A stretch of DNA of 64,000 bases from Escherichia coli (GTDB lineage Bacteria > Pseudomonadota > Gammaproteobacteria > Enterobacterales > Enterobacteriaceae). Shown here one piece after another: positions 11,699 through 30,086 of this stretch (its first letter is position 1; each line of letters begins with the position of its first letter). Where the stretch lies: the NCBI RefSeq assembly GCF_050920415.1, contig NZ_CP169309.1. The stretch is one strand, 5' to 3'. The notes beneath the pieces were generated by a model. That model searched no databases. It saw only the letters and a list, made by a program, of their open reading frames with translations, and was not told the origin of the DNA. A program made the translations under genes and the position numbers.

Positions 11699-11793
11699 CA
11701 GAACGTGCCCCCGCGCACGGGCGGCACGGGGTGGCGAAAGGCACTGCCACATCAAAACCCCGTCCACCGCCCTTTATTTCAGGAGAAAGCAGC

Positions 11794-12461: not shown

Positions 12462-12464
12462 ATT

Positions 12465-13601: not shown

Positions 13602-13734
13602 CGGTGATCTGAACGCATTGCTGGATGAAACGGAGGCCGCCTGGGCGGTCTGTGCAGACAAAGTGGACATGATTATTGCGTGTCAGGAGCGAAACAGTGA
13701 ACAAACCACAATCCCTGCGCCACGCCCTCAATAA
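13444..13734 (+). CDS. o-spanin lipoprotein (LysC/Rz1-like), overlapping i-spanin in +1 frame
   Basis: 96 aa with lipobox LTLSGC; begins inside the i-spanin gene. Confidence 0.55.
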   Translation: MRTRIYAAGLILLCLLTLSGCGNVRHSPEVQLTVSGCPRVTPCRLEQAAPRTNGDLNALLDETEAAWAVCADKVDMIIACQERNSEQTTIPAPRPQ

Positions 13735-14573: not shown

Positions 14574-14578
14574 AATGT

Positions 14579-15109
14579 TTACGCTCTTAATAAACTTAAA
14601 TAACTTTTTATGCTTTGGCAAAAAGGGAAAAGGTCTATTTTAATTTTCCAGTTTTTTTTGTTTTGAACCCCAGAAGCAATAATAGAACCGTCCCAATATT
14701 TTATTCCATTTTTGCCGGTCTTTTTTGTTAACTCAAAACTTAATGCGTGAATAATTTTATTGCAGCATTCGCGTATAGAATCTTTAACATGACCATCTAT
14801 AACAAAAAGTATATTTTCATGTTCTTCAAATGCTTCTTTCTCAGGTGAGTAATCTGGGTTCCACTCATGTTCACTAGTGTCTTGGAGAATTCGTAGTTTT
14901 GTACAAAGGCTAATAAGATTGTTGCTAATGGTATATTCCAACCATCCGTTGTACGATAACTCCTCCATTTCAAATTCAGTTACTATAGAACCATCATATA
15001 CTTTCTGTGTGGAATATATACGCTGTAAATAAAATTCAGATGAACAGCATAATTGCTCAATTATTCTTGCGTGTTCTTCTATAGCGTAATAATCAATTGG
15101 ATGGCTCAT
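14579..15109 (-). CDS. AT-rich orphan gene antisense to the late operon (176 aa, no recognised domain)
   Basis: ORF on minus strand between S and V; aaagg RBS before ATG (MSHPIDYY); markedly AT-rich; ends 5 bp from S stop. Confidence 0.55.
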   Translation of the reverse strand: MSHPIDYYAIEEHARIIEQLCCSSEFYLQRIYSTQKVYDGSIVTEFEMEELSYNGWLEYTISNNLISLCTKLRILQDTSEHEWNPDYSPEKEAFEEHENILFVIDGHVKDSIRECCNKIIHALSFELTKKTGKNGIKYWDGSIIASGVQNKKNWKIKIDLFPFCQSIKSYLSLLRA

Positions 15110-15140
15110 TCTTTTACCTTTCTTTGATTGGAATTGTATT

Positions 15141-15158
15141 TGTGTCATTTACCACACA
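15141..15158 (+). promoter_or_regulatory. Ogr/Delta-type late promoter box (TGT-N12-ACA) upstream of V
   Basis: tgt-gtcatttaccac-aca ~50 bp upstream of V start. Confidence 0.4.
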
Positions 15159-15204
15159 AGGACGTATTGATGCCATAGATTCAAGGTCCGTGCAACCTAA
15201 CCCT

Positions 15205-15783
15205 ATGAACGCACAACTAACCGAAATCATGCGCCTTATCACCAACCTGATCCGCACTGGTGTAGTCACCGAAGTGGACCGGGAAAACTGGCTTTGCCGG
15301 GTTAAAACGGGCGAGCTTGAAACCAACTGGATCAGCTGGCTGACGCTGCGTGCCGGGAATGCCCGCACATGGTGGCGACCATCGGAAGGTGAGCAGGTGG
15401 TGCTGCTGAGTCTGGGCGGCAATCTGGAAACTGCCTTTGCGCTGCCCGCTGTCTATTCGAATCAGTTCGCACCACCGTCGACGTCGGCAGACGCCTGCGT
15501 GACAGAACATCCTGACGGCGGCTGGTTTGAATACGAACCCACTACCGGGCGCTGGTATGTCAGGGGCATCAAATCAATGGTCATTGAGGCCGCTGACAAC
15601 ATCACCATGAAAACCAGTGAGTTTGTACTGGAGGCTGACCGCACGCGCATTAACAGCGAAGTGGTGATCAATGGTGGCGTTACCCAGGGCGGCGGAGCGA
15701 TGAGTTCTAACGGGATCGTGGTTGATGCGCATCAGCATACTGACGTCCTGAAAGGCGGCGACACAACCGGAGGCCCGGTATGA
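15205..15783 (+). CDS. baseplate spike/assembly protein V (P2 gpV-like)
   Basis: Similarity to P2 V; start set at ATG 15205 (MNAQLTEIMRL). Confidence 0.85.
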   Translation: MNAQLTEIMRLITNLIRTGVVTEVDRENWLCRVKTGELETNWISWLTLRAGNARTWWRPSEGEQVVLLSLGGNLETAFALPAVYSNQFAPPSTSADACVTEHPDGGWFEYEPTTGRWYVRGIKSMVIEAADNITMKTSEFVLEADRTRINSEVVINGGVTQGGGAMSSNGIVVDAHQHTDVLKGGDTTGGPV

Positions 15784-16139
15784 CGCTTTATAGCGGGATG
15801 AACAATACCAGCGGTAAAGCCATTACTGATATTGATCATCTGCGCCAGTCGGTGCGGGACATTTTGCTGACGCCGCAGGGTAGCCGCATTGCCCGTCGGG
15901 AATATGGTTCCCTGCTGTCGGCACTGATAGACCAGCCACAAAATCCGGCATTACGCCTGCAGGTCATGTCGGCAGTGTATGTGGCGCTGAGTCGCTGGGA
16001 GCCACGGCTGACGCTGGATTCCATCACCATTAACAGCAATTTTGACGGTTCAATGGTGGTGGAGCTGACCGGGCGGCGTAATAACGGTGTGCCTGTTTCC
16101 CTTTCCGTATCAACAGGAGCAGAGAATGGCAGTGATTGA
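15780..16139 (+). CDS. baseplate protein W (gp25-like)
   Basis: 119 aa, position and size as P2 W. Confidence 0.8.
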   Translation: MTLYSGMNNTSGKAITDIDHLRQSVRDILLTPQGSRIARREYGSLLSALIDQPQNPALRLQVMSAVYVALSRWEPRLTLDSITINSNFDGSMVVELTGRRNNGVPVSLSVSTGAENGSD

Positions 16140-17034
16140 CCTTTCGCAGTTGCCTGCGCCGCAGATTGTGGATGTGCCGGACTTTGAGACGCTGCTTGCC
16201 GAACGCAAGGCAGAATTTGTGGCGCTTCATCCGAAAGATGAGCAGGAAGCAGTGATCCGCACGCTGGAACTGGAATCTGAACCCGTCACCAAATTGTTGC
16301 AGGAGAATGCTTACCGTGAGTTGCTTCTGCGCCAGCGCATTAACGAAGCCGCGCAGGCGGTGATGGTGGCTTATGCCATAGGGGGCGATCTGGACCAGCT
16401 CGCCGCCAACTACAACGTGAAACGCCTGACGGTGACGCCTGCTGATAATGACGCTGTGCCGCCCGTTGCAGCTGTGATGGAAAGCGATGAAGCGTTACGC
16501 CTGCGTGTGCCTGCAGCCTTTGAAGGGCTTTCAGTTGCGGGGCCAACTGCAGCTTATGAATTTCATGCCCGAAGCGCCGACGGTCGGGTGGCGGATGCCA
16601 GTGCAACCAGCCCAGCACCTGCAGAGGTGGTGCTGACTGTCCTTAGCCGCGAAGGCGATGGAACTGCAGAAAAAGACCTGCTGGACGTGGTGAAAAAAGC
16701 TCTGAACAGTGAGAACGTCCGCCCGGTGGCTGACCGTCTTACGGTTCGCAGCGCAGAAATCATCCCGTATCGCGTGGAAGCCACCATTTTTCTCTATCCG
16801 GGACCGGAAGCAGAGCCGGTAATGGCAGCGGCAAAAGCCAGTCTGCAGAAGTACATTGCCAGCCAGACGAGGCTTGGTCGGGATATTCGCCGTAGCGCCA
16901 TCTTTGCTGCTCTGCATGTTGAGGGTGTTCAACGTGTGGAACTGGCTTCTCCGCTGGCGGATGTGGTCCTGAACAAAACACAGGCGGCATCATGTACGCA
17001 GTGGAGCGTAACCAACGGAGGAACGGATGAATAG
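16126..17034 (+). CDS. baseplate wedge protein J (P2 gpJ-like)
   Basis: 302 aa from ATG 16126 (MAVIDLSQLP). Confidence 0.85.
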   Translation: MAVIDLSQLPAPQIVDVPDFETLLAERKAEFVALHPKDEQEAVIRTLELESEPVTKLLQENAYRELLLRQRINEAAQAVMVAYAIGGDLDQLAANYNVKRLTVTPADNDAVPPVAAVMESDEALRLRVPAAFEGLSVAGPTAAYEFHARSADGRVADASATSPAPAEVVLTVLSREGDGTAEKDLLDVVKKALNSENVRPVADRLTVRSAEIIPYRVEATIFLYPGPEAEPVMAAAKASLQKYIASQTRLGRDIRRSAIFAALHVEGVQRVELASPLADVVLNKTQAASCTQWSVTNGGTDE

Positions 17035-17632
17035 TCTGCTGCCACCGGGTTCAACTTCACTGGAGCGCCGACTGGCGCAAACCTGTAGCGGGATTTCTGA
17101 TCTGCAGGTGCCGCTGCGTGACTTGTGGAATCCGGCTACCTGTCCGGTCAGCTTCCTGCCTTATCTCGCCTGGGCGTTCTCTGTGGATCGCTGGGACGAG
17201 GGCTGGACAGAAAGCGTCAAACGCCAGGTAGTGAAGGATGCTTTTTATATTCATCAGCATAAAGGAACTACCAGTGCCGTGCGGCGGGTGGTGGAACCGT
17301 TCGGATTCCTGATCCGCATTATTGAGTGGTGGCAGACCGGAGAAACACCGGGCACGTTTCGCCTGGATATCGGCGTGCAGGACCAGGGCATCACTGAAGA
17401 TACCTATCTGGAACTTGAGCGGCTGATAAGCGATGCCAAACCATGTAGCCGTCACATGATCGGCATGTCCATCAATCTGCAGACCAGCGGTCCGCATTGG
17501 GTGGGGGCCGCCAGCTATCTTGGCGAAGAAATCACGATCTATCCGTATATCAACGAAACAATTATTTCCGGCGGCACCGCGCATGAAGGCGGGGCGGTCC
17601 ATGTTATTGACACAATGAGAGTGAATCCATGA
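17027..17632 (+). CDS. baseplate protein I (P2 gpI-like)
   Basis: 201 aa, overlaps J stop and H start. Confidence 0.8.
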   Translation: MNSLLPPGSTSLERRLAQTCSGISDLQVPLRDLWNPATCPVSFLPYLAWAFSVDRWDEGWTESVKRQVVKDAFYIHQHKGTTSAVRRVVEPFGFLIRIIEWWQTGETPGTFRLDIGVQDQGITEDTYLELERLISDAKPCSRHMIGMSINLQTSGPHWVGAASYLGEEITIYPYINETIISGGTAHEGGAVHVIDTMRVNP

Positions 17633-19026
17633 GCACAAAATTTTATACCCTGCTGACGGATATTGGCGCGGCGAAACTTGCCAGCGCCGCCGCGCTCGGT
17701 GTGCCGCTAAAAATTACCCATATGGCGGTGGGCGATGGCGGCGGAACATTGCCAACGCCGGACGCCAAGCAGACAGCATTGGTAAATGAGAAACGCCGGG
17801 CTGCGCTGAATATGCTCTATATCGACCCGCAGAACAGCAGCCAGATTATTGCTGAACAGGTGATCCCTGAAAACGAGGGCGGTTGGTGGATACGTGAAGT
17901 GGGCCTGTTTGATGAGTCCGGGGCATTGATTGCCGTGGGCAACTGCCCGGAAAGCTATAAGCCGCAACTGGCTGAAGGCAGCGGGCGTACCCAGACCGTG
18001 CGCATGGTGCTGATTACCAGCAGCACGGACAATATCACCCTGAAAATCGACCCTGCCGTAGTGCTGGCAACCCGCAAGTATGTGGATGACAAGGTACTGG
18101 AGCTGAAGGTGTACGTGGATGATCAGATGGCAAAACATCTTGCCGCACCGGACCCGCATTCACAGTATGCACCCAAAGAAAGTCCGACGTTTACCGGGAC
18201 ACCAAAAGCGCCAACTCCAGCGGCAGGGAATAACACCACGCAGGTTGCGACCACCGCGTTTGTTCAGGCGGCACTGACGGCTCTTATTAATGGTGCGCCA
18301 GCCACGCTGGACACGCTGAAAGAAATAGCCGCAGCCATTAACAATGATCCGAATTTCAGTACCACCATTAACAATGCGCTGGCACTGAAAGCGCCGTTGT
18401 CGAGTCCGGCACTCACCGGAACGCCAACAGCCCCCACTGCTGCACAGTCGGTCAACAATACACAGATTGCCACCACGGCTTTTGTGAAATCGGCGATTGC
18501 AGCAATGGTAGGTTCTGCACCTGCGGCACTGGATACACTGAACGAACTGGCGTCGGCGTTGGGGAATGATCCGAACTTTGCCACGACAATGCTTAATGCG
18601 CTGGCAGGTAAACAACCGCTGGACAATACGCTGACTAATTTGAGTGGAAAGGATGTCGCTGGTCTTCTCGCATACCTTGGTTTGGGGGAATTGGCTCTGG
18701 CTGGCGCAACAACCGGCGCTATGTTGGTGAATGGGTATGTAGCAATTCCATTAATTATTTCTGGCGTTCGGAGACCACTTATTATCCAGTGGGGAGTGGG
18801 GCAGTTTGGGGGAAGTCTGGGGGATGATGCGGGATATTTAAACAATTTCCCTTTCGCTTTTCCGTCGGCGTGCTACGTGATGGTTGCCAGCCACGTGGGG
18901 CATACACCTTCGGGTGCCGGAATACTATCTGCTTCCGCAATCACAAAAAGCGGCTTTCGTGGTTTTTCCAGCGTAGTGACTGCCGCAAATCCTGTATCGG
19001 GCTGTTATGTTGCTATAGGAGGGTGA
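17629..19026 (+). CDS. tail fibre protein H; C-terminal 112 codons lie inside an invertible segment
   Basis: 465 aa; conserved N-terminus (MSTKFYTLLTDIGAAK...); internal tandem repeats; recombination site within codons LLAYLGLGE. Confidence 0.85.
   Translation: MSTKFYTLLTDIGAAKLASAAALGVPLKITHMAVGDGGGTLPTPDAKQTALVNEKRRAALNMLYIDPQNSSQIIAEQVIPENEGGWWIREVGLFDESGALIAVGNCPESYKPQLAEGSGRTQTVRMVLITSSTDNITLKIDPAVVLATRKYVDDKVLELKVYVDDQMAKHLAAPDPHSQYAPKESPTFTGTPKAPTPAAGNNTTQVATTAFVQAALTALINGAPATLDTLKEIAAAINNDPNFSTTINNALALKAPLSSPALTGTPTAPTAAQSVNNTQIATTAFVKSAIAAMVGSAPAALDTLNELASALGNDPNFATTMLNALAGKQPLDNTLTNLSGKDVAGLLAYLGLGELALAGATTGAMLVNGYVAIPLIISGVRRPLIIQWGVGQFGGSLGDDAGYLNNFPFAFPSACYVMVASHVGHTPSGAGILSASAITKSGFRGFSSVVTAANPVSGCYVAIGG
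18181..18624 (+). repeat. two tandem ~222 bp (74 aa) repeats within tail fibre gene
   Basis: SPTFTGTPKAP...NDPNFSTT and SPALTGTPTAP...NDPNFATT segments are clearly homologous. Confidence 0.6.
18665..18690. repeat. Hin/Gin-type recombination crossover site (left, inside H)
   Basis: ttctcgcatacc-tt-ggtttgggggaa: imperfect 26 bp palindrome matching hix/gix-like sites; inverted copy at 20480-20505. Confidence 0.55.
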
Positions 19027-19027
19027 T

Positions 19028-19462
19028 GTGTTTTTTAGTCCATCTTTAAATATTTTTGTGAATCCTGCGCTTAAGGATGACTACATCAATGTAAATTCAT
19101 GGCCAGATGATGCTGTTGAAGTTGATGAGCAGGTGTATATTGAGTTTTCCGGATTACCGCCGAAAGGAAAAATCCGTATCGCTGGGGAAAATGGTTTTCC
19201 TGCATGGTCTGAAATTCCACCACCAACGCATGAGGAACAGATTGCCGCAGCCGAATTGAAAAAACAGCAATTGATTAATCAGTCCAACGAATATATGAAT
19301 ACCAAGCAATGGCCTGGTAAAGCGGCTATTGGTCGTCTGAAAGGTGAGGAACTGGCGCAATATAATTTGTGGCTGGATTATCTGGACGCACTGGAACTGG
19401 TTGATACCTCCAGTGCTCCAGATATTGAATGGCCTACGCCTCCGGCAGTTCAGGCCAGATGA
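19028..19462 (+). CDS. tail fibre assembly chaperone (P2 gpG-like), active orientation
   Basis: 144 aa directly after H stop. Confidence 0.8.
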   Translation: MFFSPSLNIFVNPALKDDYINVNSWPDDAVEVDEQVYIEFSGLPPKGKIRIAGENGFPAWSEIPPPTHEEQIAAAELKKQQLINQSNEYMNTKQWPGKAAIGRLKGEELAQYNLWLDYLDALELVDTSSAPDIEWPTPPAVQAR

Positions 19463-20027
19463 CATCCGGCGCGGTGCTCGTATCTGTTGCCGTCACCGCG
19501 TCAATGTAATCAAGCACGGCGTTAAGCCGGGTGGTTTCTGCCTGCGTCAGCTTCCGCCCGGCCTGTAATTTCAGCTGAATCAGACTGATGGAAGCCATTG
19601 CAGCATCAATCAGTGACTGGCGCTGTGCTTCTGCCGCTTCTACTGCGGCACCGTGTTGTGCCTCAGTATCTGTCACCCATTTCTCACCATCCCATTTATC
19701 GTATGGCGTTAACGGTGAAAGCGTGACATAACCGTCTTTGATGGCACCGATATAATCCACTGTAACAGCAGCACCATTTTCGATTGAGTAAACAGTCTCA
19801 TTGCGATGGTCTTCTTCATGGCTCCATCCCTTACCTGTAAATACTGCCACTCTTCCCGGAATGTTTTCGCCAGGGTCAATACCAGTTGAACAGGCGGGCA
19901 TACTTACGCCAGTATTAATATATTCATCAGACCAGCCCGTATACTCAGATGTTTCAGCATCATAATAAAAACAACGCATATCACCCGGCACTGTAGCCAG
20001 CCCATTTTCATCAAAAACAGGTTTCAT
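19434..20027 (-). CDS. alternative tail fibre assembly chaperone (for inverted orientation)
   Basis: 197 aa minus-strand ORF inside invertible segment; C-terminus resembles the + strand chaperone (DYIDAV/LDYLDAL, IWPELP/IEWPTP). Confidence 0.75.
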   Translation of the reverse strand: MKPVFDENGLATVPGDMRCFYYDAETSEYTGWSDEYINTGVSMPACSTGIDPGENIPGRVAVFTGKGWSHEEDHRNETVYSIENGAAVTVDYIGAIKDGYVTLSPLTPYDKWDGEKWVTDTEAQHGAAVEAAEAQRQSLIDAAMASISLIQLKLQAGRKLTQAETTRLNAVLDYIDAVTATDTSTAPDVIWPELPEA

Positions 20028-20492
20028 TATGCAGCCCTCACAATATAATTAAAGGCGATGTTACGTGGACGGTTTTCATTAGCTGTTGGCACGACACGAG
20101 AGGCGTCGAATCCAAGGTCATCGGTTTTGTCTATAGTAGTTGTGTTATTCGGCATTCTCGCTGATCGTGTTCCTGCATCGTAAAAAGCCCCTCTGATTGC
20201 ATCAAAAGACATACCGATCCCGCCATCTGCGAATCCCTCAATATTTCTTATTGCATCCCCCTGTGAAGATAATAATTGTCGCCCGGCATCCACTCCACGT
20301 CCGTCATCCCAGCCACGAATAAATTCACCGCGTAAATCAGGCAATTTATTTTTCGGATAAACCTTTGCCAGTTCCGGGTATTCTTCAGCAGAAAAAGCCG
20401 CACCGTTGCATTTCAGCCAGCCAGTAGGCGGTGTGGCTGAAGGCCACGGAACAGGCACACCAACGGGTAATGCTGAACCTTCTCCCAAACCA
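20027..20492 (-). CDS. alternative tail fibre C-terminal cassette (promoterless; expressed only after inversion)
   Basis: Minus-strand frame open through right crossover site; contains Mu S'/P1-type fibre tip motif LPDLRGEFIRGWDDGRGVDAGR. Confidence 0.7.
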
Positions 20493-20505
20493 ACGTTTAT
20501 GAAAA
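20480..20505. repeat. Hin/Gin-type recombination crossover site (right)
   Basis: ttctcccaaacc-aa-cgtttatgaaaa; inverted relative to site at 18665-18690; 55 bp upstream of invertase gene. Confidence 0.55.
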
Positions 20506-20560
20506 TGCAGAGATAACGGCTAACTGGCATCATCTCCGGTTTTTATTCAGGGGGATGATC

Positions 20561-21127
20561 ATGCTTATTGGCTATGTACGCGTGTCAACAAATGACCAGA
20601 ACACCGATTTGCAACGTAATGCACTGAACTGCGCGGGATGTGAGCGGATTTTTGAGGATAAAATCAGTGGCACTAAGTCCGACAGACCGGGGCTGAAAAA
20701 GCTGCTCAGGACACTATCGGCAGGAGACACGCTGGTTGTCTGGAAGCTGGACAGGTTGGGGCGCAGTATGCGGCATCTTGTTACGCTGATAGAGGAGTTG
20801 CGCCAGCGTGGTGTGAATTTCCGAAGCCTGACTGACAGTATTGATACCAGTACCCCAATGGGCCGTTTCTTTTTTCATGTCATGGGTGCCCTGGCTGAAA
20901 TGGAACGCGAACTGATAGTTGAACGTACCAGGGCAGGGCTGGCTGCAGCTCGTGCCAAAGGCAGAGTAGGTGGACGCCGTCCTAAGTTGACCACCGAACA
21001 GTGGGCACAGATTGGGCGTTTACTCGAGGCCGGAGAATCAAGACAGCGTATTGCACTGATTTTTGATGTGGGTGTTTCCACAATTTATAGAAAATTTCCG
21101 GCAAATAAGAGTAATGAATCCCCCTGA
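20561..21127 (+). CDS. site-specific DNA invertase, serine recombinase (Hin/Gin/Cin/Pin family)
   Basis: N-terminus MLIGYVRVSTNDQNTDLQRNAL with catalytic Ser; resolvase fold plus C-terminal HTH (GVSTIYRKF). Confidence 0.85.
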   Translation: MLIGYVRVSTNDQNTDLQRNALNCAGCERIFEDKISGTKSDRPGLKKLLRTLSAGDTLVVWKLDRLGRSMRHLVTLIEELRQRGVNFRSLTDSIDTSTPMGRFFFHVMGALAEMERELIVERTRAGLAAARAKGRVGGRRPKLTTEQWAQIGRLLEAGESRQRIALIFDVGVSTIYRKFPANKSNESP

Positions 21128-21175
21128 ATCAGCATTATTTTGATTATCCCTGCAAGTAGACAAATACCGTCATTT

Positions 21176-21193
21176 TGTGTGAATAACGGTACA
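21176..21193 (+). promoter_or_regulatory. Ogr/Delta-type late promoter box (TGT-N12-ACA) upstream of sheath gene
   Basis: tgt-gtgaataacggt-aca ~75 bp upstream of FI start. Confidence 0.4.
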
Positions 21194-21269
21194 ACTGCGC
21201 TTAGCTGTTTGTCAGGCACAATCACTTCAACATAGGGCGAAGCCTAATCCAATCAGGAGGTTCGCCACT

Positions 21270-22442
21270 ATGGCTCAGGATTACCACCACGGGGTGCGCG
21301 TTGTTGAAGTCAACGAAGGCACCCGATCCATTACCACGGTGAGCACCGCCATCGTGGGCATGGTCTGCACGGGCGATGATGCCGATGCAAAAATGTTTCC
21401 TCTTAACAAACCTGTGCTGATCACTGATGTGCTGACTGCCAGCGGTAAAGCGGGTGAGTCCGGCACGCTGGCCCGTTCGCTGGATGCCATCGCTGACCAG
21501 GCAAAACCCGTGACCGTTGTTGTGCGTGTGCCGCAGGGTGAAACGGAAGAAGAAACCACGACCAATATCATCGGCGCAGTGACTGCTGAAGGTAAAAAAA
21601 CAGGCATGAAAGCTCTGTTATCTGCCCAGTCACAGCTCGGCGTTAAACCGCGCATTCTCGGCGTGCCAGGTCACGATAACAAAGCCGTTGCGACTGAGTT
21701 GCTGAGCGTGGCGCAAAGCCTGCGTGGGTTTGCTTACCTGTCAGCGTATGGCTGCAAGACGGTACAGGAGGCGATCACTTACCGTGAAAACTTCAGCCAG
21801 CGCGAAGGAATGCTGATCTGGCCCGACTTTACTGGCTGGGACACGGTGCTGAATGCCGAAGCAACGGCATATGCCACCGCCCGTGCACTTGGTCTGCGTG
21901 CCAAAATTGATGAGCAGACCGGGTGGCACAAAAGCCTGTCCAACGTGGGCGTGAACGGTGTCACCGGAATTTCTGCAGATGTGTTCTGGGATCTGCAGGA
22001 CCCGGCAACCGATGCAGGTCTGCTGAACCAGAACGACGTCACCACGCTTGTGCGTAAAGACGGTTTCCGCTTCTGGGGTTCCCGCTGTCTGAGCGATGAT
22101 CCGCTTTTTGCCTTCGAAAACTACACCCGCACGGCGCAGGTGCTGACGGACACAATGGCAGAAGCACACATGTGGGCGGTGGATAAACCGCTTAACCCGT
22201 CGCTGGCCCGCGACATTATCGAAGGTATCCGCGCCAAAATACGCAGCCTGGTCAGTCAGGGCTATCTCATTGGTGGTGATTGCTGGCTGGATGAGTCGGT
22301 GAACGACAAAGACACGCTGAAAGCCGGAAAACTCACCATCGACTATGACTACACGCCAGTGCCGCCACTTGAAAATCTGATGCTGCGCCAGCGCATCACC
22401 GATCAGTACCTGGTGAATTTCGCCAGCCAGGTCAGCGCGTAA
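21270..22442 (+). CDS. contractile tail sheath protein (P2 gpFI-like)
   Basis: 390 aa, P2 FI-like. Confidence 0.9.
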
Positions 22443-22451
22443 GGGGACAAC

Positions 22452-22967
22452 ATGGCTTTACCACGCAAATTAAAACATCTGAACCTGTTTAACGACGGGA
22501 ACAACTGGCAGGGGATCGTTGAGTCGCTGACGCTGCCGAAATTCACCCGCAAATATGAGAAGTATCGCGGCGGCGGAATGCCGGGTGCAGTGGATGTGGA
22601 TCTGGGGCTTGATGACAGTGCGCTGGACACAGAATTTTCCATTGGTGGTACTGAACTGCTGCTGTTTAAGCAGATGGGCAAAGCCACGGTAGATGGCATT
22701 CAGCTGCGCTTTACCGGCTCTATCCAGCGTGACGATACCGGGGAAGTGCAGGCCGTGGAGCTTGTGGTGCGTGGACGTCACAAAGAAGTGGATTCCGGCG
22801 AGTGGAAGACGGGCGAAAGCAACACCACCAAAGTGACCAGTACCAACAGCTACGCGAAGCTGACCATCAATGGTGAGGTGCTCTATGAAGTGGACCTTAT
22901 CAACATGGTGGAAATTGTGGACGGTGTGGACCTGATGGAAGCGCACCGCAACGCCCTCGGCCTCTGA
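22452..22967 (+). CDS. tail tube protein (P2 gpFII-like)
   Basis: 171 aa, P2 FII-like. Confidence 0.9.
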   Translation: MALPRKLKHLNLFNDGNNWQGIVESLTLPKFTRKYEKYRGGGMPGAVDVDLGLDDSALDTEFSIGGTELLLFKQMGKATVDGIQLRFTGSIQRDDTGEVQAVELVVRGRHKEVDSGEWKTGESNTTKVTSTNSYAKLTINGEVLYEVDLINMVEIVDGVDLMEAHRNALGL

Positions 22968-23021
22968 TGTATCTGAACGGCGCGGGATACCGCGCCAGAA
23001 CCCAATTTACAGGACAGCAAA

Positions 23022-23324
23022 ATGAGCGATAAGCAGACTGAAAAGACTATTCAACTGGATACCCCCATCAAGCGCGGTAAAACAGAAATCACCGAAATTG
23101 TGCTGCGTAAACCGCAGTCCGGTGCGCTGCGCGGTACACGCCTGCAGGCCATTATGGATATGGATGTGAACGCGATGATGACCGTGATCCCCCGTATCTC
23201 CAGTCCGGCACTGACTGCACAGGAAATTGCAGAGATGGACCCGGCAGATCTCACTGCCATGTCGGTTGAGGTTGTCACTTTTTTGTTGAAGAAGTCGGTG
23301 CTTGCCGGTTTACCGACAGCCTGA
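23022..23324 (+). CDS. tail assembly chaperone E (P2 gpE-like); E+E' extension by -1 frameshift would end at 23457
   Basis: 100 aa; slippery T-TTT-TTG near 3' end; -1 frame stays open to TGA at 23455-23457. Confidence 0.8.
   Translation: MSDKQTEKTIQLDTPIKRGKTEITEIVLRKPQSGALRGTRLQAIMDMDVNAMMTVIPRISSPALTAQEIAEMDPADLTAMSVEVVTFLLKKSVLAGLPTA
23279..23285 (+). promoter_or_regulatory. programmed -1 ribosomal frameshift slippery heptamer (E/E')
   Basis: T TTT TTG in zero frame of E; downstream -1 frame encodes ~57 further aa overlapping tape-measure start. Confidence 0.5.
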
Positions 23325-23450
23325 CGGTTGACGATCTGGTGGCTGATATCGCCACCATCTTTCACTGGCCGCCATCCGTTACTGACGTTATGCCGCTGAC
23401 CGAAGTGCTGGAATGGCGGTATAAAGCGATTCAGAGAAGCGGGGCCAACG

Positions 23451-26400
23451 ATGAGTGATAACAACCTGCGGCTGCAGGTCATTCTTAATGCGGTTGACAA
23501 ACTCACCCGCCCATTCCGTGTTGCACAGGCCAGTTCGAAAGAGCTGGCTGGCGCAATTCAGAATACCCGAAACAGCCTCAAAGAACTGAATAAGCAGGCT
23601 GGCAGAATTGATGAATTTCGCAAGACGCGCTCGCAACTAGCCATAACAGCCAACAACCTGAACGCAGCCCGCGAAGAGGCGGCAAAACTCGCCACACAAT
23701 TTGCTGCCACTAACAGGCCAACCGCCGCGCAGGCAAAGTTATTCAGTCAGGCCAAAACACGAGTACAGGAACTTCAGCAGACCTATAACGGCTTGTTGGG
23801 GGCGGTCCAGAGACAACGTCAGGCACTTAAAGAATCAGGGATTGATACCAGACAACTCAGTAGTGCCCAGCGAGAACTTAAGAAAAATGCTGAAGAAACA
23901 AGGCAGGCACTGGAGGGCCAGCAAAAAGCACTTAAACGTCTGGGTGAACAACAGTCACGGATGAACGCTGCCAGAGAACAATACTCAAGACGGCTTGAAG
24001 TGCGCGATCGCATCGCAGGAGCCGGAGCCACTACCACGGCTGCAGGGCTGGCAATGGGTGCGCCAGTGATGGCAGCAGTAAAAAGCTATACCAGCATGGA
24101 AGATGCCATGAAAGGTGTGGCAAAGCAGGTCAATGGTCTGCGTGATGATAATGGCAACCGCACTGCGCGTTTTTACGAAATGCAGGATGCCATCAAGGCT
24201 GCCAGCGAACAGTTGCCGATGGAAAACGGTGCTGTGGACTTTGCCGCACTGGTTGAAGGTGGTGCGCGCATGAACGTCGCAAATCCTGACGACAGCTGGG
24301 AAGACCAGAAACGTGACCTGCTGGCCTTCGCCAGCACGGCAGCAAAGGCGGCAACAGCCTTTGAGCTGCCAGCGGATGAACTGTCAGAAAGTCTGGGGAA
24401 AATCGCCCAGCTCTACAAAATCCCTACCCGCAATATTGAACAGCTCGGTGATGCGCTGAACTATCTGGATGATAACGCCATGTCGAAAGGGTCAGACATC
24501 ATTGATGTCATGCAACGCCTGGGCGGTGTGGCAGATCGTCTGGATTATCGTAAAGCGGCGGCGCTGGGTTCCACCTTCCTGACACTGGGCGCTGCGCCGG
24601 AGGTTGCTGCCAGTGCAGCAAACGCGATGGTGCGTGAATTGTCCATTGCCACCATGCAAAGTAAGAGTTTCTTTGAAGGGATGAATCTGCTGAAACTCAA
24701 TCCTGAAGTGATTGAAAAGCAGATGACGAAGGATGCGATGGGAACTATCCAGCGTGTGCTGGAGAAGGTGAACGCACTGCCGCAGGACAAGCGTCTGTCT
24801 GCCATGACCATGTTGTTTGGTAAAGAGTTTGGTGATGATGCAGCGAAACTGGCAAACAACCTTCCGGAACTGCAGCGCCAGCTAAAACTGACAGCGGGCA
24901 ATGATGCGCTCGGTTCCATGCAGAAAGAATCCGACATCAACAAAGACTCACTTTCCGCTCAGTGGTTGCTGGTCAAAACCGGAGCGCAGAACACCTTCAG
25001 CAGCCTGGGCGAAACGCTGCGCCAGCCGCTGATGGATATTCTGTACACGGTGAAAAGCATCACGGGGGCGTTGCGCCGCTGGGTGGAAGCTAACCCGGAA
25101 CTGACAGGCACACTGATGAAAGTAGCGGCTGTTGTGGCTGCGGTTACCGTAGGCCTCGGCACCTTAGCGGTGGCGCTGGCTGCAGTGCTGGGGCCGCTGG
25201 CAGTCATCCGTCTGGGATTCTCTGTGCTGGGTATCAAAACGTTACCTTCCGTTACGGCAGCAGTAACACGAACCAGCAGCGCGTTGTCCTGGTTAGCTGG
25301 CGCTCCACTGGCACTGCTGCGACGCGGGCTTGCTTCATCGGGCAACGCAGCGGGTTTACTTACTGCGCCGTTGTCGTCTTTGCGCCGCACCGCATCACTG
25401 ACGGGGAATGTCCTGAAAACTGTAGCAGGTGTGCCGGTTGCACTGTTGCGGTCTGGATTATCCGGTTTACGTGCGGTTGCTGTGATGTTTATGAATCCAC
25501 TGGCAGCACTACGCGGTGGACTGGCTGCCGCAGGCGCGGTGCTGCGTGTGCTGGCATCCGATCCGCTGGCGATGCTGCGCGTTGCCCTGTATGCCGTATC
25601 TGGTCTGTTAGGTGCTCTGCTCAGTCCGATAGGTCTTGTGGTTACTGCACTGGCGGGCGTGGCGCTGGTTGTCTGGAAATACTGGCAACCCATCACCGCA
25701 TTTCTCGGTGGCGTGGTGGAAGGATTCAAAGCGGCGGCAGGTCCCATCAGTGCTGCATTCGAACCGCTTAAGCCCGTGTTCCAGTGGATTGGCGACAAAG
25801 TACAGGCGTTGTGGGGCTGGTTTACTGATCTGCTGACGCCTGTTAAGTCGACCTCTGCCGAACTGCAGAGCGCAGCGGCAATGGGGCGACGATTCGGGGA
25901 GGCACTGGCGGAAGGGCTGAATATGGTCATGCATCCGTTGGACTCCCTGAAATCCGGCGTTTCCTGGTTGCTGGAGAAACTCGGTATTGTCAGTAAAGAG
26001 GCTGCAAAGGCGAAACTGCCGGAAAGCGTGACGCGTCAGCAACCTGCGACGGTGAATGCAGACGGTAAAGTGATGATGCCATCGGGTGGTTTTCCGTCAT
26101 GGGGATATGGCTTTGCGGGGATGTATGACAGCGGCGGCTATATCCCGCGCGGGCAGTTCGGCATTGTCGGTGAAAACGGGCCTGAAATTGTCAACGGTCC
26201 GGCAAACGTGACCAGTCGGAGAAATACAGCTGCACTGGCTGCCGTTGTTGCCGGAATGATGGGCGTTGCTGCCGCGCCTGCAGAGCTTCCGCCGTTACAT
26301 CCTTTGGCACTTCCCGCGAAAGGCGGCGAAGCGATGGTGAGTCGTGCAGCCACTGTGCCGCCCGCTCAACGGATTGAGGCACCGACGCAGATCATCATCC

Positions 26401-26528
26401 AGACGCAGCCAGGACAAAGTGCGCAGGATATTGCGCGGGAGGTGGCACGCCAGCTTGATGAACGTGAACGCAGGCTGAAGGCAAAAGCCAGGAGTAACTA
26501 CAGCGATCAGGGGGGATACGACGCATGA
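23451..26528 (+). CDS. tail tape measure protein (P2 gpT-like), 1025 aa
   Basis: Long alpha-helical-type protein with central hydrophobic Ala/Leu-rich block; position between E and U. Confidence 0.85.
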   Translation: MSDNNLRLQVILNAVDKLTRPFRVAQASSKELAGAIQNTRNSLKELNKQAGRIDEFRKTRSQLAITANNLNAAREEAAKLATQFAATNRPTAAQAKLFSQAKTRVQELQQTYNGLLGAVQRQRQALKESGIDTRQLSSAQRELKKNAEETRQALEGQQKALKRLGEQQSRMNAAREQYSRRLEVRDRIAGAGATTTAAGLAMGAPVMAAVKSYTSMEDAMKGVAKQVNGLRDDNGNRTARFYEMQDAIKAASEQLPMENGAVDFAALVEGGARMNVANPDDSWEDQKRDLLAFASTAAKAATAFELPADELSESLGKIAQLYKIPTRNIEQLGDALNYLDDNAMSKGSDIIDVMQRLGGVADRLDYRKAAALGSTFLTLGAAPEVAASAANAMVRELSIATMQSKSFFEGMNLLKLNPEVIEKQMTKDAMGTIQRVLEKVNALPQDKRLSAMTMLFGKEFGDDAAKLANNLPELQRQLKLTAGNDALGSMQKESDINKDSLSAQWLLVKTGAQNTFSSLGETLRQPLMDILYTVKSITGALRRWVEANPELTGTLMKVAAVVAAVTVGLGTLAVALAAVLGPLAVIRLGFSVLGIKTLPSVTAAVTRTSSALSWLAGAPLALLRRGLASSGNAAGLLTAPLSSLRRTASLTGNVLKTVAGVPVALLRSGLSGLRAVAVMFMNPLAALRGGLAAAGAVLRVLASDPLAMLRVALYAVSGLLGALLSPIGLVVTALAGVALVVWKYWQPITAFLGGVVEGFKAAAGPISAAFEPLKPVFQWIGDKVQALWGWFTDLLTPVKSTSAELQSAAAMGRRFGEALAEGLNMVMHPLDSLKSGVSWLLEKLGIVSKEAAKAKLPESVTRQQPATVNADGKVMMPSGGFPSWGYGFAGMYDSGGYIPRGQFGIVGENGPEIVNGPANVTSRRNTAALAAVVAGMMGVAAAPAELPPLHPLALPAKGGEAMVSRAATVPPAQRIEAPTQIIIQTQPGQSAQDIAREVARQLDERERRLKAKARSNYSDQGGYDA

Positions 26529-27010
26529 TGATGGTGCTGGGATTGTACGTGTTTATGCTGCGCACTGTGCCGTATCAGGAACTGCAGTATCAACGCAGCT
26601 GGCGACATGCGGCAAACAGCCGGGTCAACCGACGTCCGTCCACGCAGTTTCTGGGACCGGACAACGACATGCTGACGCTTTCTGGTGTTCTTATGCCGGA
26701 GATAACAGGCGGCAGGCTGTCGTTGCTGGTACTGGAGCAGATGGCAGAACAGGGGAAAGCATGGCCCCTGATTGAAGGCAGCGGCACGATTTACGGCATG
26801 TATGTGATTGAGGGACTGAATCAGACTAAAACGGAGTTTTTCCGCGACGGTATGCCGCGCCGGATTGAGTTCACCCTGTCGCTCAAACGGGTGGATGAAT
26901 CCCTGTCCGATATGTTCGGTGATCTCAGTGCGCAACTGAATAATCTGCAGGACACGGCAACGTCTGCCTTAAGCGATATCAGTAAAACGGTGGGAGGGCT
27001 GCTGTCGTGA
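26525..27010 (+). CDS. tail protein U (P2 gpU-like)
   Basis: 161 aa, overlaps T stop. Confidence 0.8.
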   Translation: MMMVLGLYVFMLRTVPYQELQYQRSWRHAANSRVNRRPSTQFLGPDNDMLTLSGVLMPEITGGRLSLLVLEQMAEQGKAWPLIEGSGTIYGMYVIEGLNQTKTEFFRDGMPRRIEFTLSLKRVDESLSDMFGDLSAQLNNLQDTATSALSDISKTVGGLLS

Positions 27011-28107
27011 ATTTCAGCTCTGAACTGCTTAACAAAGGCAACAAAACTCCCGCATTCAGCATCAGTATTGAGGGCAGGGATATCACCACTGTGCTGGATA
27101 ACCGCCTGATGAGTTTGACGCTGACGGACAATCGGGGCTTTGAAGCAGACCAGCTTGATCTGGAGCTGGACGACGCCGACGGAAAAATCGTGCTGCCGCG
27201 CCGTGGTGCGGTTATTACGCTGGCGCTGGGCTGGAAGGGGCAGCCGCTTTTCCCGAAAGGGGCATTCACGGTGGACGAGATTGAACACACTGGCGCACCG
27301 GACCGCCTGACTATCCGGGCGCGAAGTGCTGATTTTCGTGAAACGCTGAATACCCGCCGTGAAAAGTCGTGGCACAAGACCACCGTTGGGGAAGTGGTGA
27401 AGGAAATAGCTGCACGGCACAAACTGAAGATGGCATTGGGTAAAGACCTGTCAGATAAACCCGTGGAACATATAGACCAGACCAATGAGAGTGACGGCAG
27501 TTTTCTGATGCGACTGGCGCGCCAGTACGGTGCTATTGCGTCGGTGAAAAATGGCAATCTGTTATTCATCCGGCAGGGACAGGGCAAAAGCGCCAGCGGT
27601 AAACCACTGCCGGTGATCACTATCACGCGTAAGGACGGCGACAGTCACCGCTTTACCCTGGCAGATCGCGGAGCCTATACGGGCGTCATTGCCAGCTGGT
27701 TGCATACCCGCGAACCCGCGAAGAAAGAAAGCACCACGGTGAAGCGTAAGCGCAGAACTAAGAAGCAGAAGAAAGAGCCGGAAGCGAAGCAGGGCGATTA
27801 TCTGGTGGGGACGGATGAAAACGTGCTGGTACTTAATCGCACTTATGCCAACCGGAGCAACGCCGAACGAGCGGCGAAAATGCAGTGGGAACGCCTGCAA
27901 CGCGGTGTTGCGTCATTCTCGCTACAACTGGCGGAAGGTCGGGCAGATCTCTACACGGAAATGCCTGTGAAGGTCAGTGGCTTTAAACAGCCAATAGATG
28001 ATGCGGAATGGACCATTACGACTCTGACACATACCGTCAGCCCGGATAACGGTTTTACGACCAGTATTGAACTTGAAGTGAAAATTGGTGATCTTGAAAT
28101 GGAATAA
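27007..28107 (+). CDS. tail protein D (P2 late control gene D-like)
   Basis: 366 aa, P2 D-like. Confidence 0.85.
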   Translation: MNFSSELLNKGNKTPAFSISIEGRDITTVLDNRLMSLTLTDNRGFEADQLDLELDDADGKIVLPRRGAVITLALGWKGQPLFPKGAFTVDEIEHTGAPDRLTIRARSADFRETLNTRREKSWHKTTVGEVVKEIAARHKLKMALGKDLSDKPVEHIDQTNESDGSFLMRLARQYGAIASVKNGNLLFIRQGQGKSASGKPLPVITITRKDGDSHRFTLADRGAYTGVIASWLHTREPAKKESTTVKRKRRTKKQKKEPEAKQGDYLVGTDENVLVLNRTYANRSNAERAAKMQWERLQRGVASFSLQLAEGRADLYTEMPVKVSGFKQPIDDAEWTITTLTHTVSPDNGFTTSIELEVKIGDLEME

Positions 28108-28175
28108 ATGGTTCTCAATATTGGTATTTTGTGTATCATTGCAATGATTCTGATAGCAAAGGTAGGGATCTGGAT

Positions 28176-28394
28176 ATGATGAATTGTCCAAAGTGTGGTC
28201 ATGCGGCGCACACAAGGAGCAGTTTTCAAGTAACAGAAAGCACCAAAGAGCGTTACTGCCAGTGCCAAAATATTAACTGCGGGAGCACTTTTGTTACCCA
28301 TGAAACAGTGGTCCGGTTTATTGTGACACCTGCAGTGATTGCCACAGCCCCTCCACATCCATTGCCAGGTGGTCAGGGCCATATGAATTTTTAA
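28176..28394 (+). CDS. ogr: Ogr/Delta zinc-finger late transcription activator
   Basis: MMNCPKCGHAAHTRSS...ERYCQCQNINCGSTF: C-x2-C...C-x4-C pattern of Ogr; 72 aa from ATG 28176. Confidence 0.8.
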   Translation: MMNCPKCGHAAHTRSSFQVTESTKERYCQCQNINCGSTFVTHETVVRFIVTPAVIATAPPHPLPGGQGHMNF

Positions 28395-28420
28395 GAAAGA
28401 GAACCTGCTACGGCAGGTTT

Positions 28421-28903
28421 TTATTCATCTGGGATCTCACCCGTTTCAAGAAAATGTATAAAGCCAGGCTCATCTATGATGATAGTGCCTTTCATCCTGG
28501 CTGCCGATACTTTTGATGGGCCTGCATTGTAACCGCAACAGAGCATCTGAAGGTTTTGGGTTACAGATGTTCTTACCGTTAATCCTTGTTCATTCGCCTT
28601 ATCAACCAACCTTTCTTTATCTGCTTTCTTAAATCCGGTGAAACACACATCGAATGTATTTTTTTTCGGACCTGACTGCTTAGTGAGATGTGAGTAGTTT
28701 TCGGGGAGGAATGACGCGCATTCCTGAATGGCTTGTTCTTGTGAATCGTATTGTTTAAGAATGCGGTCTTTTCGGAAGGTTTTTATTCGATCGGTGTTCT
28801 TACAAATGCCCTGTATGTGATTTTCGCTATAACTGATGCTCTGTATTGAGTGAACACCGATACGACCATTTGCATTGATGTAAACAAAGTGAAGTTCTTC
28901 CAT
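28421..28903 (-). CDS. orphan protein with N-terminal WYL-like region and C-terminal BRCT-like domain (160 aa)
   Basis: R-x-F-R-x-D-R-I signature (IKTFRKDRI) in N-half; C-half FDVCFTGF...CCGYNAGPSKVSAARMKGTIIIDEPGF fits BRCT pattern; AT-rich; between ogr and ssrA. Confidence 0.5.
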   Translation of the reverse strand: MEELHFVYINANGRIGVHSIQSISYSENHIQGICKNTDRIKTFRKDRILKQYDSQEQAIQECASFLPENYSHLTKQSGPKKNTFDVCFTGFKKADKERLVDKANEQGLTVRTSVTQNLQMLCCGYNAGPSKVSAARMKGTIIIDEPGFIHFLETGEIPDE

Positions 28904-28989
28904 GTCAAACCTCTTTGCATGATTTCAAGATGGCGACAGGCAAGATGGACGCAAAAGTCTGTCGCCATTTTGCCGCCACTACCTAAGAA

Positions 28990-29026
28990 AAAGGGGCTAC
29001 GCTTTCACGTAACCCCTTGATTTATT
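28990..29026 (-). terminator. ssrA transcription terminator
   Basis: On minus strand ggggttacg-tgaaag-cgtagcccc hairpin followed by ttttt, directly after tmRNA 3' end. Confidence 0.5.
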
Positions 29027-29389
29027 TGGTGGAGCTGGCGGGAGTTGAACCCGCGTCCGAAATTCCTACATCCTCGGTACTACATGCTTAGTCAGTCTTT
29101 ACATTCGCTTGCCAGCTGCGGACGGACACGCCACTAACAAACTAGCCTGATTAAGTTTTAACGCTTCAACCCCAGGCAGGGCTTCCACGCGATCTCTTTT
29201 GGGTTTGACCTCTCTTGATCCCCGTCCTAAGAGCGGAGGCTAGGGAGAGAGGGCTCTAAGCAGGTTATTAAGCTGCTAAAGCGTAGTTTTCGTCGTTTGC
29301 GACTATTTTTTGCGGCTTTTTACGAGGCCAACCGCCCCTCGGCATGCACCTTGGGTTTCGCAAATCCCGTCGAATCCAGAATCAGCCCC
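29027..29389 (-). ncRNA. ssrA: tmRNA (SsrA), 363 nt
   Basis: Reverse complement matches E. coli tmRNA from GGGGCUGAUUCUGG 5' end to GCCAGCUCCACCA 3' end, including tag-encoding region. Confidence 0.95.
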
Positions 29390-29603: not shown

Positions 29604-30086
29604 TTAACGGTGGGCGTTTTTCATGATACGCGCTTTATCCACCTGCCATTCGCGTTCTTTGATGTCTGAACGTTTATCGTGCTGTTTCTTACCTTTAGCG
29701 ACGCCGATTTTCACTTTGCACCAGGCATTTTTCCAGTACAGGGAGAGCGCCACTACGGTATAGCCTTCTCGATTGACGCGACCGTACAATGAGTCCAGTT
29801 CGCGCTGGTTGAGAAGTAACTTGCGGGTACGGGTAGGATCGCACACCACATGCGTGGATGCCACAGCCATTGGCGTGATGTTAGCGCCAAACAGAAATGC
29901 TTCTCCATCACGTAGAAGGACGTAGCTGTCGCTGATATTGGCTTTTCCTGCGCGCAGGGATTTAACCTCCCAGCCTTGCAGGGCAAGTCCCGCTTCGAAC
30001 TCTTCTTCGATAAAGTATTCGTGACGGGCGCGCTTGTTAAGCTCGATGGTCGCTGAACCAGGTTTATGTGCTTTTTTCTTCGTCAT
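29604..30086 (-). CDS. smpB: SsrA-binding protein SmpB
   Basis: 160 aa [28 protein letters not shown]...; directly upstream of ssrA. Confidence 0.95.

What the first reader, a model, noticed from the sequence alone, without database searches (positions are those of the whole stretch)
28395..29389. Prophage meets the chromosome at the ssrA 3' end with the ogr (not int) end proximal
tmRNA is intact to its CCA end and is followed by its terminator, then immediately by phage-side AT-rich DNA and ogr. The integrase and immunity region must lie at the far, unseen end. The att core therefore overlaps the ssrA 3' terminus, and any cargo here (the WYL/BRCT gene) sits between ogr and attR. E. coli K-12 instead has the unrelated CP4-57 element at this site.
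Basis: partly seen in the sequence, partly recalled or inferred. Interest (0 to 1): 0.4.

Follow-up and report, generated by a model that had tools for sequence, protein, structure and literature searches.

The report
P2-like prophage joined to ssrA
This is the ordinary right-hand junction of a Cartapus/Fels-2-type P2-like prophage that has integrated into the 3' end of the E. coli tmRNA gene, a well-documented arrangement, with a small lysogen-expressed WYL-BRCT accessory gene sitting next to the junction.

Summary
ssrA (29027-29389, minus strand) is full length and identical to K-12 ssrA. It is followed by a strong terminator, a 160-aa WYL-BRCT gene, then ogr and gpD of a P2-like prophage.

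The attachment core is 46 bp (29026-29071): the last 45 nt of ssrA plus one base. A full att set supports this:
- attP is contiguous in the isolated Yersinia phage MLG42 and in phage Cartapus, which is 99.8% identical to the window up to base 29071.
- An empty attB occurs in 709 of 5426 complete E. coli genomes.
- A second core copy lies beside int at the far end of the same prophage type in strains HCM-28C-2 and N96 and in SopEPhi.

The window's own int end is off-window; the window starts inside gpA.

- The terminator and everything left of 29072 are phage DNA, not chromosome.
- ogr-proximal orientation is the norm for this family, because attP lies between int and ogr.

229 of 5426 E. coli genomes carry this junction. 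ssrA integration by Fels-2/SopEPhi has been published since 2003, so this is already known.

The only modest lead is that both flanks of attP are variable one-gene cargo slots. One allele is a dCTP-deaminase defence gene.

The parts
1..29071 (.). P2-like (Peduoviridae, Elveevirus cartapus-like) prophage. Only the right ~29 kb is visible, from inside gpA to the att core. An estimated ~6.6 kb or more on the left (rest of gpA, early and immunity genes, int, far-end core) lies off-window.
   Evidence: 99.3% identity to Escherichia phage Cartapus over 80% of window 1-24000 and 99.8% over 27000-29071. Gene order matches the annotated prophage in HCM-28C-2.
27007..28107 (+). gpD (late control D / baseplate hub)
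   Evidence: Pfam Phage_GPD E 2.2e-27
28176..28394 (+). ogr, the late-gene zinc-finger activator and last conserved phage gene before attP
   Evidence: Pfam Ogr_Delta E 9.1e-21; RefSeq annotation in homologous loci
28402..28419 (.). Hairpin between the convergent ogr and WYL-BRCT genes (terminator-like)
   Evidence: 7-bp stem, AACCTGCCGTAGCAGGTT
28421..28903 (-). Accessory gene for a 160-aa WYL + BRCT two-domain protein. It reads in the same direction as ssrA.
28931..28978 (.). Arm-type integrase binding sites of the P' arm (TGYCGCCA at 28931-28938 minus, 28960-28967 plus, 28971-28978 plus)
   Evidence: 5 of the 8 matches in the 12-kb Cartapus locus cluster within about 250 bp around the core, with 1.3 expected over the whole locus. 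They match the 186-type consensus tgccGCCActt (PMC3448106). The block 28958-29025 is conserved in N96, SopEPhi and MLG42, while DNA further left diverges.
28983..29018 (-). Phage-supplied intrinsic terminator that now ends the ssrA transcript
   Evidence: -19.8 kcal/mol, z -4.9. Identical in Cartapus attP and near-identical in SopEPhi and MLG42. Absent from empty-site and K-12 ssrA downstream DNA.
29026..29071 (.). att core: 46-bp identity shared by attP, attB and both prophage junctions. It comprises the last 45 nt of ssrA (T-arm and 3' acceptor strand with CCA) plus 1 nt.
   Evidence: Three-way alignment A2. Exact 45-mer at both ends of the prophages in L001, L013 and SopEPhi, and once in the Cartapus and MLG42 attP. 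Matches to Cartapus, MLG42, SopEPhi, RE2010 and SEN8 stop at window 29071.
29027..29389 (-). ssrA (tmRNA), intact. The 5' 318 nt are chromosomal. The 3' 45 nt cannot be assigned to phage or chromosome.
29604..30086 (-). smpB, conserved chromosomal neighbour
   Evidence: ORF; annotation of homologous loci

Best explanation
The interval is the ssrA-proximal junction (P2 nomenclature attR, structure B-O-P') of a Cartapus/Fels-2-type P2-like prophage.

Mechanism. The phage's 186-type tyrosine integrase recombined a 46-bp core in attP with the identical last 45 nt (+1) of the host tmRNA gene. In the phage, attP lies between int (with an optional cargo gene) and ogr (with an optional cargo gene). 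In the ssrA reading direction the order is cI-int-(cargo)-core-terminator-(cargo)-ogr.

Consequences of that order:
- Integration places the phage copy of the ssrA 3' end, the phage terminator, the WYL-BRCT gene and ogr directly behind the chromosomal 5' part of ssrA.
- int and cI are carried about 34 kb away, next to the displaced chromosomal copy of the core.
- ssrA stays intact in sequence but acquires a phage terminator.
- The WYL-BRCT gene is a lysogen-expressed accessory gene (moron) occupying a variable slot between ogr and the P' arm sites.

Shown: junction anatomy, core limits, attP, attB, far-end copies in relatives, and the domain identity of the cargo protein.
Inferred: the crossover lies in the T-loop part of the core; the window's own far end looks like its relatives; what the WYL-BRCT protein does.
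For: - Intact tmRNA, identical to K-12.
- 99.8% identity to phage Cartapus from gpD through the terminator, stopping at 29071. The three-way att alignment shows reciprocal arm sharing.
- The isolated phage vB_YpM_MLG42 has D-ogr-BRCT-core-int-cI contiguous.
- Empty attB, contiguous at 100% identity, in 709 of 5426 E. coli genomes.
- A second exact core copy beside int in HCM-28C-2, N96, SopEPhi and 4 of 6 unrelated P2-like loci, always in the same orientation.
- Arm-type sites cluster on both sides of the core and match the published 186-type consensus.
- The junction type occurs in 229 of 5426 genomes, 164 of them with the BRCT gene.
- ssrA integration by SopEPhi and Fels-2 is published (Pelludat 2003, as cited in PMC3448106 and PMC10107115).
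- The BRCT gene, identified as the Cartapus 'putative exonuclease protein', is expressed in LF82 lysogens.
Against: - The window's own int end and second core copy are not visible, and no genome in the collections is the same strain. Best coverage of window 1-7000 was 70%.
- The Cartapus record has the same length as the LF82 prophage (33,368 bp) and may have been circularised in silico. Independent attP evidence therefore rests mainly on MLG42 and SEN8.
- The exact strand-exchange positions were not determined.
Confidence: 0.93

Rival explanations
1. The 28.4-29.0 kb segment (terminator plus WYL-BRCT gene) is chromosomal DNA, or a remnant of an earlier island at ssrA. On this reading the P2-like prophage is integrated elsewhere or ends at ogr.
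For: The segment has lower GC than the phage late genes. Tandem islands do occur at ssrA: a P4-type integrase lies just outside the far-end core in L007, L008 and L011.
Against: The segment is contiguous with ogr on one side and with int on the other in phage genomes (Cartapus and MLG42). It is absent from 709 empty-site genomes and from K-12. No extra core copy separates it from ogr.
Confidence: 0.02
2. The prophage in this particular genome is a defective remnant whose int/attL end has been deleted or rearranged. On this reading the junction is real but the element is no longer excisable.
For: The far end is unseen. The A-Q hotspot carries IS21 fragments (IstB 3375-3788, rve 4640-5338), which shows some decay. 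No database genome matches the left 7 kb fully.
Against: All late genes from Q to ogr are present as long ORFs in P2 order. Every inspected relative with this junction has the complete far end. All 30 listed hits have a second or third matching place in the record.
Confidence: 0.08
3. The WYL-BRCT gene is a core phage gene needed for the lytic or lysogenic cycle, for example a DNA ligase or exonuclease as annotated, rather than exchangeable cargo.
For: It is conserved in three Elveevirus genomes from E. coli and Yersinia at 77-99% nucleotide identity. It is annotated 'DNA ligase' or 'exonuclease' in phage records and PHROGs.
Against: The protein is 160 aa with only WYL and BRCT domains and no catalytic domain. 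The ligase and exonuclease hits cover the BRCT part only. The slot is empty in SopEPhi and holds an unrelated 237-aa gene in N96. About 65 of the 229 genomes with this junction did not give at least 80% coverage of the query containing it. In Yersinia ruckeri the homologue sits in a different slot, right after cI.
Confidence: 0.1

Closest known systems
Salmonella phages SopEPhi and Fels-2 (Felsduovirus), which integrate into ssrA (Pelludat, Mirold & Hardt 2003; cited in PMC3448106 and PMC10107115)
   Same: The 45-nt ssrA 3'-end core is identical at both prophage ends. The order att-(cargo orfY)-int-cI ... D-ogr-att is the same. The P' arm sites and terminator are conserved. The integrase and immunity region are 186-type.
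   Different: SopEPhi has no gene between ogr and the core. Nucleotide identity is about 81% over D-ogr. The host is Salmonella.
Escherichia phage Cartapus (Elveevirus cartapus), prophage 4 of E. coli LF82 (PMC9928086)
   Same: 99.3-99.8% nucleotide identity over the shared genome, including ogr, the WYL-BRCT gene, terminator and core. It occupies the same chromosomal site in LF82 (H16).
   Different: The cos-adjacent (A-Q) hotspot content differs. The window has IS21 fragments and a DUF4145 gene. The window's attP-int slot content is unknown.
CP4-57 cryptic prophage at ssrA in E. coli K-12
   Same: It uses the 3' end of the same ssrA gene and supplies its own downstream terminator.
   Different: It is an unrelated element with a P4-type integrase. 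intA lies immediately next to ssrA (int-proximal). The annotated element starts 15 nt inside ssrA (record position 2755941). Its excision reportedly deletes U357 of tmRNA (PMC10107115), whereas this family's far-end core copy is intact.
Coliphage 186 / HP1-type integration into tRNA genes
   Same: Same integrase type, and arm-site consensus tgccGCCActt on both sides of a long core that restores the target gene (PMC3448106).
   Different: The target is tmRNA rather than a tRNA.

Membership tests
Site-specifically integrated P2-like prophage of the Fels-2/SopEPhi/Cartapus class at ssrA | Target gene regenerated intact at one junction by phage-borne sequence | tested here: met
   Full-length tmRNA identical to K-12. 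Identity to the phage runs 45 nt into ssrA.
Site-specifically integrated P2-like prophage of the Fels-2/SopEPhi/Cartapus class at ssrA | Direct repeat of the core at the other prophage end, next to int | not testable with these tools
   The window's left end is inside gpA, and only one core copy is in the window. The feature is met in relatives with the same junction: L001, L013 and SopEPhi.
Site-specifically integrated P2-like prophage of the Fels-2/SopEPhi/Cartapus class at ssrA | Contiguous attP carrying the same core in a free phage genome | tested here: met
   MLG42 (isolated on Y. pestis EV76) and Cartapus
Site-specifically integrated P2-like prophage of the Fels-2/SopEPhi/Cartapus class at ssrA | Unoccupied attB in other strains of the species | tested here: met
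   709 of 5426 genomes have ssrA contiguous with the far-end flank at up to 100% identity
Site-specifically integrated P2-like prophage of the Fels-2/SopEPhi/Cartapus class at ssrA | 186-type arm-binding repeats flanking the core | tested here: met
   TGYCGCCA cluster against the published consensus. Only the P' arm is visible in the window (28931-28978).
Site-specifically integrated P2-like prophage of the Fels-2/SopEPhi/Cartapus class at ssrA | P2-type late gene order ending in D-ogr | tested here: met
BRCT domain proteins | BRCT alpha/beta fold with the conserved T-G ... K motif | tested here: met
WYL domain proteins | Sm-like five-strand barrel of the WYL type | tested here: met
HTH-WYL-WCX transcription regulators (BrxR/CapW/PafBC/DriD) | N-terminal winged-HTH DNA-binding domain and C-terminal WCX dimerisation domain | tested here: not met
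   The protein starts directly with the WYL barrel and ends with BRCT. No HTH hit.
NAD-dependent DNA ligase / DEDDh exonuclease (database annotations of homologues) | Adenylation or exonuclease catalytic domain | tested here: not met
   Matches cover only the C-terminal BRCT portion of those models. The protein is 160 aa.
CP4-57-type island at ssrA | P4-type integrase immediately downstream of ssrA | tested here: not met
   The genes downstream of ssrA are WYL-BRCT, ogr and gpD. K-12 comparison.

The most novel reading that the evidence does not exclude
The two flanks of attP in ssrA-integrating P2-like phages (ogr-to-core and core-to-int) may be one-gene exchange slots for anti-phage or superinfection-exclusion genes, distinct from the published cos-adjacent hotspot.

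On this reading the WYL-BRCT protein is an uncharacterised lysogen-expressed factor. It would use an ssDNA-sensing WYL barrel and an RFC1/LigA-type BRCT, a type that binds 5'-phosphate DNA ends, to bind ss/ds DNA junctions. Candidate targets are cohesive ends, nicks or gaps of incoming phage DNA, with interference in their sealing or replication.

After integration the gene sits 88 nt behind the terminator of the highly transcribed ssrA gene, which could supply read-through expression.
Probability: 0.2. Interest if true: 0.45.

Novelty: already known. Interest (0 to 1): 0.15.

Why it matters
It matters mainly as correct annotation.
- The prophage boundary is at 29071/29072, inside ssrA, not after the terminator.
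- The lysogen's tmRNA precursor is terminated by phage DNA. The hairpin starts 8 nt after the CCA, whereas in empty-site strains the first obvious terminator is about 120 nt downstream.
- Excision should restore an intact ssrA, unlike CP4-57.

The finding does not open a new question. ssrA is reported as the most enriched integration target (Islander, PMC4383910), and this phage family's use of it has been published since 2003.

The only forward-looking element is the pair of att-flanking cargo slots. One allele is a known dCTP-deaminase defence gene and several others are unknown single genes, including the WYL-BRCT protein. These could be mined like the published P2/P4 hotspots.

Tried and rejected
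- I tried to find the window's own genome so as to read its far end. The left 7 kb reaches at most 70% coverage in 5426 E. coli genomes.
- An exact-protein look-up of the 243-aa hotspot ORF returned other prophages, some at other sites.
- The closest chromosomal relative, N96 (99.7%), carries a sister prophage with different cargo, not the same one.
- Pelludat 2003 (PMC181011) is not held, so its core length and map were taken only from citing papers and from the SopEPhi record.
- The PGAP annotation of a 177-nt 'partial tmRNA' at the far end suggested a long ssrA homology in attP. Alignment and Rfam show only the 46-bp core plus about 35 nt of weak similarity. That idea was rejected.
- A sequence-profile search of the N-terminal domain against PDB gave nothing. 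Only the fold comparison identified WYL.
- PADLOC gave only a BRCT-only partial match (PDC-S48 C-terminus), so membership of a known defence system was rejected.
- A literature search for WYL + BRCT + prophage found nothing relevant.
- No sigma-70-like promoter was found between the terminator and the WYL-BRCT start codon.

Full report
**What is in the interval**

ARAGORN and Rfam both call a complete tmRNA gene at 29027-29389 on the minus strand. The Rfam match scores 295.8 bits and covers model positions 1-374 of 374. The tag is ANDENYALAA. The gene is identical over all 363 nt to K-12 ssrA. smpB follows on the right at 29604-30086, as in every E. coli genome inspected. The chromosomal 19.6 kb to the right is 95-99.7% identical to E. 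coli genomes.

Reading left from the CCA (29027), the features are:
- a 12-bp G+C-rich hairpin at 28991-29018 plus a U-tract (-19.8 kcal/mol, z -4.9);
- a cluster of TGYCGCCA motifs;
- a 160-codon ORF on the same strand as ssrA (28421-28903);
- a small hairpin between convergent genes (28402-28419);
- ogr (28176-28394) and gpD (27007-28107).

The remaining 27 kb to the left is a P2-type late region and replication gene. The window starts inside gpA.

**Defining the attachment site**

Several independent comparisons give the same boundary.

1. A megablast of 27000-29100 against phage genomes matches Escherichia phage Cartapus at 99.8%. The match stops at window 29071, as do the matches to Yersinia phage vB_YpM_MLG42, SopEPhi, RE2010 and SEN8. 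In Cartapus and in MLG42 the match lies in the middle of the record and is followed by int and cI. MLG42 is a phage isolated on Y. pestis EV76. This is a contiguous attP.

2. In E. coli HCM-28C-2, whose junction is 99.9% identical to the window, the prophage runs from ssrA through ogr ... gpA ... cI, int and a 343-aa gene. It ends at a partial 'tmRNA', followed by glaH.

3. A three-way alignment compared the window junction, Cartapus attP and the HCM-28C-2 far end.
   - The window shares its left arm with the phage and its right arm with nothing but ssrA.
   - The far end shares its phage-side arm with attP.
   - All three share exactly TTGGTGGAGCTGGCGGGAGTTGAACCCGCGTCCGAAATTCCTACAT.
   - This is 46 bp at window 29026-29071, that is, the last 45 nt of ssrA plus one base.

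4. A chimera of ssrA plus the HCM-28C-2 far-end flank is found contiguous, at up to 100% identity, in 709 of 5426 complete E. coli genomes. That flank is the native DNA downstream of ssrA, and these strains are empty attB sites.

5. The exact 45-mer occurs twice, in the same orientation, in HCM-28C-2, in N96 and at the two ends of the SopEPhi record. It occurs once in each attP, and once in the window.

6. Among six unrelated P2-like loci pulled in by an unrelated protein look-up, four have the core just outside int.

7. TGYCGCCA motifs cluster on both sides of the core in Cartapus. Five of the eight matches in 12 kb lie there, with 1.3 expected by chance over the whole locus. They fit the published 186-type arm-site consensus tgccGCCActt (PMC3448106). 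In the window they lie at 28931-28978.

- int and immunity genes lie at the far end in all relatives inspected.
- K-12 carries CP4-57, with intA directly after ssrA.

Two corrections follow.

First, the terminator is not ssrA's own. It is part of the phage P' arm, conserved in Cartapus, N96, SopEPhi and MLG42. It is absent from K-12 and from empty-site strains, whose first obvious terminator lies about 120 nt further downstream. The prophage boundary is therefore at 29071/29072, inside ssrA.

Second, the ogr-proximal orientation is not a special feature. In this family attP lies between int and ogr. The ssrA-like core reads in the same direction as cI-int. Integration therefore always leaves ogr next to the regenerated ssrA and int next to the displaced fragment. 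SopEPhi shows the same arrangement.

Its far end is off-window and the strain is not in the collections. The test is passed in every close relative inspected.

**How common and how well known**

- The P' arm/terminator-ssrA junction is present in 229 of 5426 complete E. coli genomes.
- 164 of those also carry the ogr-BRCT configuration of the window.
- Integration of SopEPhi and Fels-2 into ssrA is cited as established in PMC3448106 and PMC10107115.
- The latter paper tabulates that the P2-integrase elements at ssrA keep an intact CGCCAGCTCCACCA end. The far-end copies seen here do the same.
- The Islander paper notes that ssrA is the most enriched integration target (PMC4383910).
- Cartapus itself is LF82 prophage 4, spontaneously induced at a low level (PMC9928086).

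The finding is therefore an ordinary, already-described kind of junction.

**The cargo gene**

The 160-aa protein belongs to a family of about 160-aa proteins in Enterobacterales and beyond.

- The AF2 model is confident: pLDDT 93.8 for the whole protein and 93.3 for the N-terminal domain alone.
- By sequence it is closest to the RFC1 and LigA BRCTs.
- T88, G89 and K130 are invariant across 32 homologues.
- The N-terminal 52 residues form a five-strand barrel.
- Pfam WYL hits 5 of 32 homologues.

The database names 'DNA ligase' and 'exonuclease' are BRCT-only transfers. There is no HTH and no catalytic domain.

The gene behaves as exchangeable cargo:
- the slot is empty in SopEPhi;
- it holds an unrelated 237-aa gene in the sister prophage of N96;
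- in Yersinia ruckeri the homologue sits directly after cI in another P2-like prophage.

In LF82 the Cartapus gene annotated 'putative exonuclease protein' is one of two Cartapus morons, expressed 15-fold above prophage background. I take it to be the same gene, matched by that annotation only. I found no sigma-70-like promoter between the terminator and its start codon. Read-through from ssrA is possible but untested. Its function is unknown. Binding of ss/ds DNA junctions with a 5' phosphate is an inference from the domain types only.

**Seen in passing**

The mirror slot between the core and int is also variable:
- a 401-aa 'RES' gene in Cartapus;
- orfY in SopEPhi;
- unrelated genes of 343, 348 and 407 aa elsewhere;
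- nothing in MLG42;
- a bona fide anti-phage dCTP deaminase in N96 (PADLOC E 1.9e-146).

Rousset et al. 2022 describe only the cos-adjacent hotspot for E. coli P2-like phages. This is the only mildly new lead, and it rests on a handful of loci.

**Verdict**

The feature is already known, and interest is low.

Noticed in passing
L013 10056-11813 (E. coli N96); L002 7192-8397; L001 32964-33995; L008 478-1701; L010 1187-2233; L012 161-1372: The slot between the far-end att core and int holds a different single gene in almost every prophage inspected. One is a known anti-phage dCTP deaminase (PADLOC E 1.9e-146). It is empty in MLG42, L007 and L011. This looks like a second, att-adjacent cargo or defence slot that is not covered by the published cos-adjacent P2 hotspot.
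   Followed up: partly
L013 43422-44135 versus window 28421-28903: In the closest chromosomal relative (N96), the ogr-to-core slot carries an unrelated 237-aa protein with no Pfam or PADLOC match in place of the WYL-BRCT gene. The adjacent 70-bp P' arm and terminator are conserved.
   Followed up: partly
window 1961-6184: The cos-adjacent A-Q hotspot holds DinI (1961-2266), a widespread 243-aa ORF (2326-3057), IS21 fragments (IstB 3375-3788 minus; rve/IstA 4640-5338 minus) and a DUF4145 protein (5486-6184) with a weak PADLOC PD-T7-4 match. The IS debris explains why no database genome covers this stretch fully.
   Followed up: partly
L007 237-1662, L011 334-1773, L008 1-361: In three other bacterial genomes of unidentified species, a P4-type integrase (Arm-DNA-bind_3) lies immediately outside the far-end ssrA core copy of the P2-like prophage. 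This is a tandem array of two different elements at ssrA.
   Followed up: no
L014 3120-4486 (Yersinia ruckeri): A 53%-identical WYL-BRCT homologue lies 8 bp downstream of, and co-directional with, the cI repressor of another P2-like prophage. This suggests co-transcription with the immunity gene.
   Followed up: no
window 19434-21127: A serine invertase (Resolvase + HTH_7, 20555-21127) sits next to oppositely oriented tail-fibre and assembly ORFs. This is a Cin/Pin-type invertible host-range segment in the prophage.
   Followed up: no
L001 33980-34156: RefSeq annotates a 177-nt partial 'tmRNA' at the far end of the prophage. Only the last 46 bp are truly ssrA-identical, and Rfam matches about 80 nt. 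The annotation overstates the fragment.
   Followed up: yes
window 47148-47273, 51401-51539, 54536-59612: Other RNA features of the window are the pheA leader, RyfD sRNA and a complete rrn operon with tRNA-Glu. These are ordinary chromosomal features.
   Followed up: no
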